NCBI GenBank assembly: GCA_964016885.1
Contig: OZ024743.1
Location: forward strand, 264,058,001 to 264,122,000
Reading direction: 5' to 3'
DNA from: Eledone cirrhosa
Taxonomy: Eukaryota
DNA: 64,000 bases
The notes under the pieces are model-generated. The model was not told the DNA's origin and ran no database searches. It saw nothing but the letters and a program-made list of their open reading frames with translations. Shown here one piece after another: positions 878 through 39,589 of this stretch. The translations under genes and the position numbers were made by a program. The number at the start of each line of letters is the position of its first letter. Position 1 is the stretch's first letter.

Positions 878-2195
878 ATGCATAAGTCTGTGTGGAATGA
901 AGTAACAACTATTGCAGAAATATTTCAGGCCAGTAAGCAAGTCAGAGACATTTGATACGAAAGAAAACCTACGAGTGCGCAAATTCTGCAGCTGACACAG
1001 AAAATAAATGGTACCACTGTTTTCTTTTCCTTTTTCTATGTGATTTTTTTCTTCTTCTTAACTTCGCTTAACTGTGGTTACCATTCTGTCTCTCCAACAG
1101 AGTTCAGGCAGTTTCTATTAGCTGTCATTTGATACGTCACTACAGCCTATTTAAAGCTAACATCCTTCTCTTCAAATATTCGGATTTCATACATTAGTAT
1201 AATATGGTTTATAGTGTTAGGAGTGTTAGAACGTTAATTTTTTTTTTTGTACATATAGTTTTATAAGGTTAGGAGTGTTAGTTAGAACATTCAGTTTTAT
1301 TTCAGTGCGTTATTTTACTAATGTGGACCACCTGACTCGAAATCAACTGGATTCCTTATTGGTAAACTTACAGCAATATCACCATACATCCCTATATATA
1401 GAAGATACAATAAGTACAACCAGTATGAGGGAGATATCTAAGATGACATTGCCTTTTGGAATTTTCGGAGTTGTACTCAATCTGAGATCATATATCGAAA
1501 ATCAAACATTTATGTCATTGAAAAATCATTATAGCCATTAATATGCAAACACACATAGAAACCCTCACCACACTCATAGCCAAGTTGTCATTTTCACTTT
1601 TCATATATTTTGTGGCATGTTAAATTTTTCTACGCATTACTGCAAACTGTTGCCTGACACAATTGCATCATATCTCCTTCCAAACTGTTATATAACGATA
1701 ATTAGTACGTTGACCATCTACTTGCTTAACTAATGCAGGAGTTATGTTTTATCTTTAATGGTGGCGTGGTCCTGGGGGAAAGAGAAAGCGGGAGGTAATC
1801 TTAGACAAAAATCCTACCTCAAATATTTGCAACAGTTTATGCTCTAATGAAAGAGATTCAAGGGCCATGTAGTAATAGTAGTGGTCACGTTAAACTAGGT
1901 GACGGATTAAGTCTACAAACTAAGTACAGTAACCATTCTTCTGACAACGTTCCACATCTTCTATACACAATCATACACACCCGTGTATATATATATAACG
2001 AAGGAGGTGTGGTAAGGAACCAGATGGACCATAACGTACCCGAGTATTCAATACTTAGGGTAGTATAGTGGGTAATAGGAAAATGCTTCACCCCGACGGC
2101 AGAGCTGAAGCCGTTTCGACGGCTATATCTGGACTAAATTAGAATTTTTAGCGTGTTAAATACATAGCCGAACTTTTTAAGGGGTAATTCCTTAT

Positions 2196-4226
2196 ATGGT
2201 AAGATTCCCAGTTCCACCGAGAAAACTTTACCTTCGGATGCGCATGCAAAAAATCGACCTGTTTGCGAAAAGACTGAGATGGAGAACATTTTTCTACGAT
2301 AGTTACCGCGACAACCAGGACTTTGACACCAAGGAGAGATTCGGATTCAATATGTACACATCTCCCCCACCGAACCCTATGCTCTCACCCTTCAAGAACG
2401 ACCTCTTCCACCTGGTCAACGGTATAAAATTCAAACCCAGACACAACCAATTCCTACAACAACTCCGTAGCAAAATAACGGAGTATGAAAGCACCAACGA
2501 CATCCTAGTGCATTCGGACAAAACTGGAAACCTCTATTTCGTCAACCCTGACAGATACCACACACTGATCAGGAGGAGCCTGAACTCCATCTACAAAAAG
2601 GCTAACCATTCAATAATCGATGACATAAATCTAGATGGACAACAAATTACCTCCAGCCTCGGGGTCGCCGACCGCACTGAACCCCTCGATCCACGGACTC
2701 CCTACTTCACCCTAAAGGACCAAAAATCCGACTTCGACCGCAAGTCATCCTTCAGGCTAATAAACCCGACGAAGTCGGACATAGGGAGAATATGTAAAAA
2801 GATCCTAGACCGCGTTATACCAAAAGTTAAGCAAAATGCGAGACTTAGCCTTTGGGTCTAGTTCGACATAGAGAGTTACTACGCCTCTATTACCTTACCG
2901 CTCCTTACGGCCGCTTTGGACTTTGCCAAAATACGCACACCAATAAACGACCAGGAAAGAAACATCCTTCTCCACGCCAGGAAGACAGTCCTCCTTTTCG
3001 ATAACTCCAAGTGGATAAAGATAACTCCCGACTCCCCCTTCGACGTAAGTATGGGCGCGACCGACTCGGCCGAGGTGACCGATTTTATAGGATTGTTCCT
3101 ACTATATAAACACACCGAAATGTTTCCTGCATTCGACGTTGAATTGTACCGAGACGATGGGCTCCTTACCCTCAAAGGGTACAACCCCAGCAGTACGGGC
3201 CGTGTCCGTAAGCAATTAATCAACTTCTTCTGGGACTGGGGATTTATAATCACCCTACAAACGTCCCTAACACAAGTCAATTTCCTAGACGTTACCCTCA
3301 ACCTCGAAAATGATCTGTACTACCCATACAGGAAACCAAACAACAACCTGCACTACATCCACCGCTGCTCTAACCATCCTAGAAACATCACCAAGAACCT
3401 GGTTAAAAATACCTACCTCCGCATATCTCGTTTTTCCGCTAATGAGCAGATATTCGATGAACATGCGCCTCATTACAATCAGGCCCTCTACCGAAGCGGC
3501 TTTCGGGAGGAAATCTCCTTTTATTCAGCTTCCCTTAGCGGAACCAGCAAGCGACGTCGCCGCTCACGCCACGTAACGTGGTTCAATCCTCCCCATAATG
3601 CCGAGGTGGCAACACCTATCGGGAAAATCTTATTTAGTCTCTTCGAAAAACACTTCCCACCGCAACACCGCTACCACAACATAATCAACAAAAACACTAT
3701 CAAACAGCGCCACACCCAACCTCTCACAAAACATCGCCGCCTCAAACAACAAGAAACTCAACTCATATGGAAGAAACAATGTAGACATTAGTGGAGAGCC
3801 GACCAGGAGGTGTAACTGCCCTGATAGATCTAGATGCCCCCTCAACAACAGATGCCGAGAACGTAACGTGATCTACCAATGCAACATGAGGACGGAAACC
3901 TCCAACAAAGCCTATATAGGATTAATCGCTTGTGACTTTAAGACCCCGCTCTACTAACACCGACATACGTTCCGAAACTCGGCCCGGCGACATGCCACTA
4001 CACTTTCGGGTCACATCTGGGACCTCCATGATATTAACATAACATACAATCTTAATTGGAGCTTACTGTCCAGGGCTAACTCCTACACGTCCGTGTAACT
4101 TATGCTCGGAGGAAACAATACAGATGTTGTTTACGAAGGACCAACTCCTAAACAAAAAAGACGAACTGGTGACTGCATGTAAATACCGATTGCATAGGAC
4201 TTACCTCGCCCTCAAACCCCCTCATG
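2196..4226 (+). pseudogene. PLE polyprotein: reverse transcriptase plus GIY-YIG endonuclease, disrupted
   Basis: Motifs KRLRWRTFF, SDKTGNLY, FTLKD, RLINPTKSDIG, FDVSMGA, YRDDG, NFLDVTL, WFNPP, then CNC..RCPL and VIYQC..KAYIG. Several stops and frameshifts. Confidence 0.92.
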
Positions 4227-4877
4227 ACCCGGGTGGGTAGACAATGGCTGCAGCATCCTCCTTTTCCCAGCTTGCCGAACAAGATAGGGGAAACCCCAGT
4301 TAACATAGGTGGATGTACTTCTTTTCTTTTCCTTTTACTTTTCTTCTTCCCTTTATCTCTTCCTATCACTTCCTTCCACCCCCTATCTCTTCCTTTTCCT
4401 TTTTCCTCTTACGCCTACCCCGAGGCAGTCCATCGGGATTTTGTAGTCTCAGTAACCCGACCCCAGTAAATTATATATATCATTTGCCGAAAACGCAATA
4501 CCAACTAAGTATAGCAGCTGCTTTAGACTCTAGAGATTTTTTTTATTACTTTTTACTTTCCAATTTTATTATTTTTATATATTTTTTAATTTATTTATTA
4601 TCTTCTAATCTCAATTTATTAACCTATTCTATAATGTCCCCCATCTATTTTTTAACAGAATCCTTTTTCGCCTGCTTCCTATCTAGCCTACACACTCCTT
4701 AGAATTTGCTGTATAGAATTAACTTTCAACGCTTGACCGGCTCCACCCACTCTCTCATTGTTCTACAGGCAAGTTCAGCTAACGCCACATCCCACCCACT
4801 CCCATGAAAGATTTAATTGTGTTTACAAGAAATGTTGACCAATCCTTTTGATAACTACAATCTGCCCATATAAGGAA

Positions 4878-37317: not shown

Positions 37318-37469
37318 ATGCTTTCCAGCGTAGTGACGTCCCTTTACGATCTGAGTTCAAATCTCGCCGAGGTTAACTTTGCCTTTCATCCTTACAGGGT
37401 CGATAAAATAAAGTACCAGTAATGCACTGGGTAATTGCTGGCCTTGTGCCAATAGTAGAAACAATTATT
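37318..37469 (+). mobile_element. 5'-truncated tRNA-derived SINE
   Basis: B-box, core and GTAGAAACAATTAT end are present. Confidence 0.88.
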
Positions 37470-39220
37470 AAATCGTTTAGTCTAATCTCTTACATTTTAC
37501 TGCTGTCAGGTCATCATTCACGTGTGTATGTATGGATGGATGTATGTATATGTATGTATGTAAGTATGTATGCATGCATGTATGTATGTATATGTATGTA
37601 CGTATAAATATATGTATATATCAGATTGCTTTCAGTAATATGGCTGCTTGAGATAAAACGAATTTCAAACACCCCTCCCAGCTAATATTAGGTAATTATC
37701 ACAAGATATTAGAACGCCTGATATTGTAAAGTACATTGTCTTAAACAAAAATTGCGAAACTAAAAGAGAAAAGTAAAATGTAAATGAAGACATGAAACAC
37801 TAAAAAATACTCTTTTATCTTTTGCTCTTACGTAAATAAAAGTAATTTTAAAATTCTTTTATTAGGTGGCGCATTTCAATAACTGAATGCGTCACTTTTA
37901 GGTTACAGCTTTCCTTGTTTTAAATGTTTTTTTTAAACTTTATATTTTGTTTTTAGCTGGCGAATTGGCAGAGTTGATAAACGATCGGATAGAAACTTTG
38001 GTTTGTGTTCCATTTATCTGGCCTATGAGTTGAAACGACTTTAAAGTCAAATTCTTCGAGGTCGATAAATAAAGTAGTATTCACGTACTGATGTTGATTT
38101 TCTTTTCACCTTCCTTCCTCTGACTCTCTCTCTCTCTCTCTCTTCTTATCCTCTCTCCTATTTTCCTATCCCATCTTTCCTTTCTCCCTATCTGATCTCT
38201 CCCTCTCTTCATCTCCCCACCCTCCTCACCTCTCCATGTCCCATCACCCACTCTCATCTCCTTCCCCATCTCTCCTTCTCGCCTCTCCCTCTACCTTACC
38301 CCATTCTTCTCTCCCTCTCCCATCTCTCTCTTTCTCTCTCTCATTTGGATACGCTGCGATGAGATAATTACTTCGACCATTACTCCAAAAATGTAAACAA
38401 AATTGTGCAATGCCCTAACAAATTCTTCTCAACTTGAATCTGATATAGTTTTGGCACCATCCAAAGACGAACCTATCTGGAGTGAAGAACTGCTTTGCCG
38501 GAAATTTATTTCGTCAATATCGCAGTAAATATACATATATGGAATTTCATTTATAATAGTTTGTTTTTATTTTGATGAGAGAGGATTTTTACTGTTTAGA
38601 CATAAAAACAACACACGTTATTTCACCTGAACTTTATTGTAAAGCGATAAGGTATGTTTACGTCGTCTTAATATATGAATTAATTATCTTAAATTTGTTT
38701 GCCGGAACGAAACCTCGGTATGAGTACGAATTTGTAGGTAAAATTATGTTATATTTTAAAATGTTTTTTTTTACTTGCAATGCTTTCTTTTATTATACTG
38801 TAAAGTTTTGCACCAAAATATCATTTTTGAAGAAATGAAAGTCAGTGATAAGAAAGTCTGGAGAGCTGGACAGCAGAAACGAAACTCCCCACAAGCGAGT
38901 GTGTCTACCCTTAGAAGTTAAGTGTTTAGTCTATATATATAGTATTGGAGCTATTTACGGTCTAAAATGACTGAAATAATTTTATTCTGGTCTATTATTC
39001 TCTCTCTCTATATATATATAATATATATAATATAATATATATAATATAATATATATAATATATACCTATATGAACCTACAGTAACTCCGCGTTATATATA
39101 TATATATATATATACACATATATATATACATATAAACACACACACATACACACACACACACACACACACACACACACACACACACACACACACACATATA
39201 TATATATATATATATATATA

Positions 39221-39589
39221 ATAAAGAAGAAAAATAAAAGATGGTTAAAAGAGTTACATATATTTTATTATGATCATTTCCAATACAAAATCATCCTGGG
39301 ACAAAAATTGTGATCTCATCAGATTAAATAAGGTAACATGATATGAGGCATAATAGCACTTGTTTACAGGAAAGTGCTAAGTCTACATATGCACTTTCCT
39401 GTAAACAAGTGCTATTATGCCTCATATCATGTTACCTTATTTTATCTGATGAGAACACAATTTTTGTCCCAGGATGATTTTGTATTGGAAATGAGCATAA
39501 AATATATGGAACTCTTTTAACCATCTTTTAATTTCTTCTTTATCGTATATAATCCAGTTCTACCAACTGTTGAGTGCTACTTATCTGAT
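39221..39589. mobile_element. Palindromic PLE-type mini-insertion with an HHR in both arms
   Basis: 39221-39377 is inverted to 39391-39543. Minus-strand HHR at 39261-39330 reads TATTTAAT-CTGATGA..GAAA-TGATCA-TA^ATAAAATA. A plus copy at 39438-39504 is damaged. Confidence 0.8.

What the first reader, a model, noticed from the sequence alone, without database searches (positions are those of the whole stretch)
1996..39589. Shared insertion rule: outward-facing inverted arms with fixed 'short' and 'long' ends in (TA)n
Seen in about ten insertions (1996-4987, 5061-5211, 5731-7380, 21752-22030, 22383-22596, 22605-26628, 28178-28371, 29623-32424, 32668-32996, 34338-34748, 39221-39589). Both outer ends are element 3' ends, and one arm extends ~40-170 nt further. 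Independent copies of a family reuse the same two end points: ..TCTTGAATT and ..TTATCCTGTA in both 5731-7380 and 28178-28371, with sides swapped. Known: PLEs often have inverted pLTRs and a tail. Inference: both ends of a break in (TA)n prime cDNA at two defined RNA sites and the cDNAs meet internally. This could occur on an RNA dimer held by the palindromic HHR stem III.
Basis: partly seen in the sequence, partly recalled or inferred. Interest (0 to 1): 0.82.

Follow-up and report, generated by a model that had tools for sequence, protein, structure and literature searches.

The report
Penelope insertions primed from both ends
Penelope-like jumping genes and a small ribozyme repeat in this animal genome land in TA repeats as two outward-facing copies, almost always one ending at a fixed near site and the other at a fixed far site; the shape is already known, and these counts suggest both cut DNA ends likely copy the same RNA from two set start points.

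Summary
Across seven families sampled in the window's own genome, 122 of 125 insertions with two canonical ends pair one short (S) and one long (L) end; 3 are S/S and 0 are L/L. The rule is not universal: 37 of 131 unbiased copies (families A, B, E, F) show one arm or were unresolved.

The coding families carry the motifs of Hydra-clade Penelope-like elements (PLEs). The architecture is published (inverted pseudo-LTR, tail at one end), as are two internal reverse-transcription starts and extension of both strands in vitro. This scan noted it before in two other genomes.

Added here: strict S/L pairing; tails of 38-171 nt; 9-13 bp target duplications; and a non-coding 467-nt hammerhead repeat that follows the same rule, with one private haplotype in both arms (9 of 9). 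That favours two priming events on one RNA and disfavours fold-back.

A symmetric dimer predicts like ends, one family lacks a palindromic stem III loop, and published ribozyme mutants still insert.

The parts
1998..2206 (-). Family B left arm, ends at the long (L) site at 1998 in (TA)n
2207..4987 (+). Family B main arm: decayed Hydra-like PLE ORF (DKT, FDIESYY, YRDDG, CxCX5C, GIY-YIG-like tail), 3' UTR, hammerhead motif (core about 4885-4891, predicted cut after 4970), short (S) end at 4987
5061..5211 (.). Family B mini insertion: L arm (5064-5148, minus) confined to the tail, S arm (5156-5210, plus); the arms barely overlap in sequence
5731..5810 (-). Family A short arm, ends at S (equivalent to 7209)
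5811..7380 (+). Family A main arm: endonuclease C-terminus, 3' UTR, hammerhead motif (core 7049-7055 mutated here, palindromic stem III 7142-7149, predicted cut after 7150), S at 7209, 171-nt tail, L at 7380
21752..22030 (.). Family C hairpin insertion with hammerhead core and about 66-nt tail; right flank is (CA)n; not sampled genome-wide
22383..22596 (.). Family D hairpin insertion (coding Hydra-like family; hammerhead variant with non-palindromic stem III loop); long arm on the minus strand stops about 15 nt before the modal L
22605..26628 (.). Family E: S arm 22605-23809 (minus), L arm 23810-26628 (plus) with endonuclease ORF remnant, hammerhead (core 26309-26315, predicted cut after 26432), S at 26494, 134-nt tail
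28178..28371 (.). Family A mini insertion: about 26-nt L arm (minus) plus 167-nt S arm (plus); no overlap between arms
29623..32424 (.). Family F non-coding 467-nt hammerhead repeat: about 2.1 units minus (L end at 29623) and 3.9 units plus (S end at 32424); core at 30764-30770 in one unit; palindromic stem III
32668..33002 (.). Family G hairpin-rich insertion, S arm minus, L arm plus, tail about 38-40 nt
34338..34748 (.). Family F partial unit: 12-14 nt S arm (minus) and 395-nt L arm (plus)
39221..39598 (.). Family H hairpin insertion; S end on the left, L arm cut about 30 nt early by array I
39599..42216 (+). Family I: 5.5 units of a 474-nt hammerhead repeat related to F (about 69%), single arm ending in (TA)n

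Best explanation
These are insertions of Penelope-like retroelements (Hydra-type by motif) and of a non-coding hammerhead repeat that likely borrows their enzyme; each two-armed insertion has one short and one long fixed end, likely because a protein dimer nicks both strands of a TA repeat and both DNA ends prime copying of the same uncut or circular RNA at two set sites. Shown: two fixed ends per family, S/L pairing, (TA)n preference, 9-13 bp duplications in the few informative targets, arms that run through the predicted ribozyme cut site, one haplotype in both arms, short microhomology at junctions. Inferred: staggered nicks about 10 nt apart; one subunit starts at S and the other at L, 38-171 nt downstream, so the RNA between them becomes the tail; the L copy displaces the S copy where they overlap; both copies often stall at the 5' border of the ribozyme fold; the two cDNA ends are joined by 0-6 nt of pairing and filled in. 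On the 467-nt repeat both copies would roll round a circle or read a uniform multimer, giving head-to-head arrays. Single-armed copies would be events where the second end did not prime or was lost later.
For: S/L in 23 of 24 (A), 21 of 21 (B; 19, 22, 33), 21 of 21 (E; 26, 38, 44), 15 of 16 (F; 25, 32), 12 of 12 (H; 70, 71), 6 of 7 (G; 51, 56), 7 of 7 simple pairs (D; 52, 56, 57), and 17 of 17 two-ended copies in a second F sample chosen by the L end (62, 64, 69). Direct repeats of 9-13 bp at three non-(TA)n targets (L049, L213, L221). All 9 F insertions with a private variant covered by both arms share it across arms. Arms of one insertion are more alike than arms of different ones in 12 of 13, 14 of 17 and 20 of 20 cases (A, B, E). 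The S arm reaches at least 20 nt further upstream than the L arm in 25 of 54 pairs, and 10 of 61 L arms lie wholly in the tail; one arm cannot be a copy of the other there. F junction overlaps of 4 nt or more in 5 of 18 against 2.4% at random (P 5e-5). PMC11167929 (parts 1-2 of 4 read): a purified lizard PLE nicks and extends both strands, starts at two internal RNA sites that match the tail ends, and is predicted to be a dimer.
Against: No biochemistry on these families. 37 of 131 unbiased copies are single-armed or unresolved and 12 have a cut arm. Three S/S pairs exist (L094, L197, L249). Family D has a third end at an internal AT run, paired with S once and with L twice. 51 of 61 L arms run through S, which on one RNA needs strand displacement or a second repeat unit (not shown). 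Shared haplotypes could also come from two transcripts of one locus or from later gene conversion. Mean identity within insertions is only 94-98% in A, B and E, the window's B arms are 88% alike, and the variant shared in L209 is in one of two left-arm units. Tails fold no better than shuffles (z -1.3 to +0.9), so no structure that positions the two sites was found. In 61 of 74 insertions both flanks are (TA)n, which hides any duplication. PMC11167929 found no difference in start site between strands and did not test pairing within one event.
Confidence: 0.65

Rival explanations
1. Both DNA ends prime, but on two RNA molecules from the same locus.
For: Palindromic stem III in A, C, E, F and I. 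Such ribozymes are known to act as dimers (PMC4209133, passages). Two RNAs remove the need for strand displacement where arms overlap. Same-locus RNAs would share a haplotype.
Against: A symmetric dimer predicts like ends (3 S/S and 0 L/L of 125). Family D lacks the palindromic loop. Naiads without canonical hammerheads have the same structure (PMC8557442). Catalytic mutants insert normally (PMC11167929). Random pairing of RNAs from the family pool is excluded by 9 of 9 haplotype concordance.
Confidence: 0.17
2. One cDNA (or an antisense RNA) folds back on a short palindrome and copies itself; the endonuclease then resolves the hairpin, leaving the tail on one side. This joins the self-priming idea of PMC3846280 and the endonuclease-resolution idea of PMC8557442.
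For: Arms share a haplotype. In 18 of 54 pairs both arms begin within 20 nt of each other, giving near-perfect hairpins. Junctions often sit on short palindromes.
Against: 25 of 54 S arms hold upstream sequence absent from the L arm, and 10 of 61 pairs do not overlap at all, so neither arm can template the other. Shared stop points are explained by a common stall at the ribozyme's 5' border (39 of 122 arm ends within 15 nt of the core). The tail ends match in vitro start sites in the lizard element.
Confidence: 0.12
3. The pairs are two independent insertions into one microsatellite, later rearrangements, or assembly artefacts of (TA)n-rich inverted repeats.
For: (TA)n tracts attract many insertions, and two separate F copies lie 4 kb apart in L288. 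The window also holds inward-facing flank duplications around (TA)n. L195 shows later local expansion.
Against: There is no (TA)n at the internal junctions. The arms always face outward in the position-ordered list. Independent events would give like ends half the time and unrelated haplotypes. Old, diverged pairs and pairs with target duplications are not assembly errors.
Confidence: 0.04

Closest known systems
Canonical EN+ PLE insertion unit (Craig et al. 2021, PMC8557442, Fig. 2; Arkhipova et al. 2013, PMC3846280; passages read)
   Same: Inverted 5'-truncated copy next to the main copy, tail at one end only, partial tandems, (TA)n bias, 8-10 bp target duplications, palindromes at the junction.
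   Different: Tails here are 38-171 nt rather than 30-40. In family B both ends lie about 95-170 nt upstream of the start codon, not inside the ORF. The pairing is counted here and is nearly exclusive; those papers call the tail optional or often at one end and explain it by self-priming or endonuclease resolution.
Poseidon element PAc of Anolis in vitro (Frangieh et al. 2024, PMC11167929; parts 1-2 of 4 read; supplement text search found nothing, figures not held)
   Same: AT-rich target, both strands nicked and extended, two internal reverse-transcription starts that bound the tail, ribozyme cleavage not needed, dimer predicted.
   Different: Different clade. The parts read do not say that one event uses one site at each end and do not explain the inverted arm. 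The starts lie in a stem-loop within the ORF there; here the tails show no significant fold.
Hydra clade of C-terminal EN+ PLEs (PMC8557442, section read as passages)
   Same: DKT motif, CxCX5C linker, CxxC and CxH in the endonuclease, hammerheads, (TA)n targets, short elements, mollusc hosts listed.
   Different: Family B shows RWR rather than RWK and is about 3.0 kb. No tree was built. The passages read give no insertion-end statistics for this clade.
Metazoan non-LTR retrozymes (Cervera and de la Pena 2020, PMC7229834; review PMC7761336; preprint 10.64898/2026.07.22.740005; passages and part 1 read)
   Same: Non-coding tandem units with a type I hammerhead, proposed circular RNA template, proposed mobilisation by PLEs.
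   Different: Described as head-to-tail arrays; 'inverted' occurs 0 times in PMC7229834 and 'tail' 0 times in the preprint. Family F forms head-to-head double arrays with fixed S and L ends, the PLE signature. The unit (467 nt) is slightly above the 150-450 range.
Twin priming of L1 (Ostertag and Kazazian 2001; recalled, not read)
   Same: The second nicked strand primes a second cDNA on the same RNA; the two are joined by microhomology, giving an inversion.
   Different: In L1 the second start is at a variable internal site and the arms do not overlap. Here both starts are fixed, close together, and the arms usually overlap.

Membership tests
EN+ PLE insertion unit | RT followed by a C-terminal GIY-YIG-type endonuclease | tested here: met
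   By motif and order in A, B, D, E. 389 unnamed homologues, the listed ones mostly about 700 aa; atlas cluster with RVT_1 on 42% of members. Pfam gave no significant hit.
EN+ PLE insertion unit | Partial tandem (pseudo-LTR) and adjacent inverted copy | tested here: met
   Tandem pLTR-ORF copies L112, L115, L117, L226; inverted arms throughout
EN+ PLE insertion unit | Tail at one end only | tested here: met
   122 of 125 two-ended copies
EN+ PLE insertion unit | Tail length 30-40 bp (typical value, not absolute) | tested here: not met
   Only G (about 38-40 nt); others 66-171 nt
EN+ PLE insertion unit | Short target-site duplication | tested here: met
   9-13 bp in L049, L213, L221; most of the 74 flank pairs are uninformative (TA)n
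Hydra clade | DKT motif | tested here: met
   HSDKTG in family B; region not held for A, D, E
Hydra clade | CxCX5C linker; CxxC and CxH around the conserved E and N, no CCHH | tested here: met
   Linker in A, B (79), D (57), E (3); CxxC and CxH in A, D, E
Hydra clade | RWK motif | tested here: inconclusive
   RWR in the decayed B copy
Hydra clade | Canonical hammerhead and (TA)n target | tested here: met
   Cores by motif scan and by eye in other copies; Rfam gathering search found none; both flanks (TA)n in 61 of 74
Hydra clade | Placement in the RT phylogeny | not tested
   No reference set was fetched
Non-LTR retrozyme (families F, I) | Non-coding tandem unit of a few hundred nt with a type I hammerhead in each unit | tested here: met
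   467-nt and 474-nt units, core and stem III; no ORF of 100 aa in F, only 101-139 aa frames running through microsatellite in I
Non-LTR retrozyme (families F, I) | Self-cleavage and circular RNA in vivo | not testable with these tools
   No RNA holder listed
   Family D has a 4-bp stem with a non-palindromic 9-nt loop, read by eye (the MFE fold, shows that hairpin but not the whole ribozyme)

The most novel reading that the evidence does not exclude
Fixed-site twin priming is the default integration route of Penelope-like elements: a protein dimer holds one RNA, circular in the case of retrozymes, at two set sites and copies it from both nicks at once, so each insertion is built inward from both ends without a classical 5' junction. 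Animal retrozymes carry both start sites on one circle and are written in as head-to-head rolling-circle arrays by Hydra-type enzymes.
Probability: 0.45. Interest if true: 0.68.

Novelty: new variant of a known kind. Interest (0 to 1): 0.43.

Why it matters
How Penelope-like elements make their inverted repeats and one-sided tail is named as an open question in PMC8557442. The counts here separate the published models: they fit two priming events on one template and fit self-priming poorly. They turn the lizard in vitro result into a sharp prediction, one start site at each end of a single event. The 467-nt repeat is young, abundant (1,653 exact matches to one 37-nt probe) and small, so it is a convenient template for that test. 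It also gives a direct genomic footprint linking animal retrozymes to PLE machinery, which so far rests on co-occurrence and sequence likeness. The architecture itself is known, and this scan met it in two other genomes, which caps the score.

Tried and rejected
Rfam at gathering thresholds: 0 hits in the window; the hammerheads were found by motif. Pfam: no significant hit for the ORF pieces. A DNA search with the F unit returned no candidates; a pattern search worked. Folding of eight tails: none significant; single-sequence folds did not recover whole ribozyme folds. Sequencing runs: no RNA holder listed. Laying four runs on 27400-29500 gave no contig across the A insertion, so no empty allele. 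Genome-wide exact counts of F ends (L 1,835; S 168 + 95) are not comparable, because the L pattern also catches subfamilies that differ before S; not used as evidence. The one candidate L/L pair among the first 100 listed L ends proved to be two separate insertions. I looked for a ribozyme-free family as an internal control: G and D both turned out to carry hammerhead-like motifs, so that control rests on the literature. The idea that arms stop at the ribozyme cut site was rejected: 0 of 122 arm ends within 5 nt of it (one arm per insertion was selected to span it, the other 61 were free). One search was biased to long ends and was left out of the tallies. Paper searches: 'Penelope' with 'twin priming' gave 3 papers, none on PLE mechanism by title or abstract; 'retrozyme' with 'head-to-head' gave 0; searches listed nothing that states the S/L rule. 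Subscription papers, figures and bioRxiv supplements were not visible, and older Penelope papers may say more.
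Full report
Setting. The window lies in a 3.0-Gb animal assembly (G000). It looks cephalopod to me from its repeats; that is an impression from recall, not a result. Self-BLAST and reading confirm all eleven stretches as outward-facing inverted arms with no (TA)n at the internal junction. They fall into eight families, here A to H; a ninth (I, 474-nt array) abuts H.

What the elements are. A, B, D and E encode, or come from, an RT followed by a GIY-YIG-type endonuclease. 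B shows DKT, FDIESYY and YRDDG and a CxCX5C linker. A, D and E show the same linker and CxxC and CxH in the endonuclease. These are the motifs given for the Hydra clade of Penelope-like elements in PMC8557442 (passages). Pfam gave no significant hit; a protein search gave 389 unnamed relatives; no tree was built. F and I are non-coding tandem units with a type I hammerhead core and a palindromic stem III, that is, retrozyme-like. In tandem B copies the start codon lies about 95 nt after the long end, so both ends fall in the leader of the next unit, downstream of the ribozyme: the short end lies 17-62 nt past the predicted cut in A, B and E.

The pairing test. For each family I searched the genome with a probe upstream of the short end, so that the probe could not choose the end. 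Ends were classed by hand from BLAST printouts; window copies were left out and duplicates merged. A (37 insertions): 23 S/L, 1 S/S, 0 L/L, 5 with a cut arm, 8 single. B (37): 21 S/L, 2 other, 14 single. E (34 of 37 examined): 21 S/L, 2 complex, 11 single or unresolved. F (first 23 clusters in position order): 15 S/L, 1 S/S, 3 cut, 4 single. Together 80 of 82 two-ended copies are S/L (P 7e-22). Further samples: H (19 loci from 52 rows, 18 distinct): 12 S/L, 5 single, 1 cut. G (13 distinct): 6 S/L, 1 S/S, 6 unresolved. D (29 loci from 46 rows, flanks not extended): 7 S/L, 3 pairs with a third end at an internal AT run (once with S, twice with L), the rest unresolved or complex. F chosen by its long end (21 ends): partner S 17, L 0, single 2, cut 1, unresolved 1. 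Total: 122 S/L, 3 S/S, 0 L/L. Most ends fall on one or two positions; about a tenth are a few to 28 nt off through small deletions or subfamily differences and were counted with the nearest site. The DNA searches score only the best 40 candidates, so samples lean to copies like the window's.

One template. In F, variants counted against a natural unit differ between insertions but run through the units of both arms within one: for example three variants in L192, two in L204, four in L208. All 9 insertions with a multi-unit variant covered by both arms share it (weakly in L209). Random pairing from the pool is excluded (product of generous, hand-entered frequencies 5e-11). In A, B and E the arms of one insertion are more alike than arms of different ones in 46 of 50 cases (mean 0.959 against 0.938, 0.942 against 0.924, 0.976 against 0.944). 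Two RNAs from one locus, or later conversion, are not excluded. L195 carries a variant with period three in one arm only, a sign of later local expansion, so array length is not all original.

Two priming events rather than fold-back. The short arm reaches at least 20 nt further upstream than the long arm in 25 of 54 pairs, the same point in 18, and less far in 11; 10 of 61 long arms lie wholly inside the tail, as in window copies 5061-5211 and 28178-28371. A hairpin copy cannot hold sequence its template lacks. At three targets that are not pure (TA)n there are direct repeats of 9-13 bp (L049, L213, L221), as expected from staggered nicks; both flanks are (TA)n in 61 of 74, one flank in 9. 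F junctions overlap by 4 nt or more in 5 of 18 cases against 2.4% at random (overlaps taken from BLAST ends, so approximate). No arm of 122 ends at the predicted ribozyme cut, 112 run through it, and 39 end within 15 nt of the ribozyme's 5' core. The template is therefore uncut, multimeric or circular, and the ribozyme fold likely acts as a stall site.

The ribozyme-dimer idea. Stem III is palindromic in A, C, E, F and I, and such ribozymes are known to dimerise (PMC4209133, passages). But a symmetric RNA dimer would most simply give like ends. D has a non-palindromic loop and follows the rule. Naiads have the architecture without canonical hammerheads (PMC8557442). Catalytic mutants of the lizard element insert normally (PMC11167929). 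A protein dimer on one RNA, predicted for that element, gives the asymmetry without further assumptions: S and L would be the two positions at which the RNA meets the two active sites. I found no significant fold in the tails, so what fixes those positions is open. Most ends share 1-4 nt of TA or AT with the target, which may help priming.

What is known. PMC3846280 (passages) describes the inverted pseudo-LTR, a 31-bp tail at one of the inverted repeats and 8-10 bp duplications, and proposes self-priming. PMC8557442 draws the same unit for all clades and ascribes the tail to endonuclease resolution. PMC11167929 shows two internal starts bounding the tail and extension of both strands. Retrozyme papers describe head-to-tail arrays and propose PLE mobilisation. 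A recent octopus repeat annotation (PMC13282606, passages) does not treat insertion structure in the passages found. My searches found no statement of exclusive S/L pairing or of head-to-head retrozyme arrays; the library lacks most subscription papers. Two earlier notes of this scan report the architecture in other genomes.

Verdict. The additions are the exclusivity, the single haplotype, the long tails in Hydra-like elements and the same signature on a retrozyme. New variant of a known kind; interest 0.43.

Noticed in passing
window 29522-29566 and 32439-32545: Two arms of a family-I-like element face inward around the F insertion, both ending at the same long-end position in (TA)n and identical over 41 nt. 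This looks like an inverted duplication of the flank rather than an S/L pair.
   Followed up: partly
window 35314-35350 / 35811-35847 and 36041-36233 / 36994-37186: Inverted duplications of flank (100% and 98% alike) on either side of long (TA)n-rich tracts; possibly fold-back synthesis primed by self-complementary (TA)n.
   Followed up: no
L195+L196 (G000:C1:56387338-56398020): A 10.7-kb head-to-head array of about 23 F units; one variant recurs with period three in the left arm only.
   Followed up: partly
window 11566-11774, 17537-17747, 18901-19738, 37318-37469, 51894-52079, 52635-52854, 54536-54643, 58033-58239, 59480-59681: A frequent repeat of about 190 nt, SINE-like by my recall; in other loci it is repeatedly nested in PLE 3' UTRs at ATTATT-like sites (L003, L004, L093, L168, L224).
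   Followed up: no
window 43422-45076 and 47479-50721 (minus strand): Two related decayed LINE-like copies (79% alike) with endonuclease-like and RT-like frames; Tx1/L1-like by my recall.
   Followed up: no
window 23424-23764 and 25345-25675: Family E carries a long (TA)n/(CA)n tract inside its 3' UTR that is copied into both arms, so the element spreads its own target sequence.
   Followed up: no
L123 1128-1882: A family B pair whose short arm is only 77% like the window's reference while the long arm is 90%; possibly a subfamily difference or arms from two templates.
   Followed up: no
window 1956-1985: A 30-nt remnant identical to the family G tail, directly left of the (TA)n that received the B insertion.
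   Followed up: no
   Followed up: no
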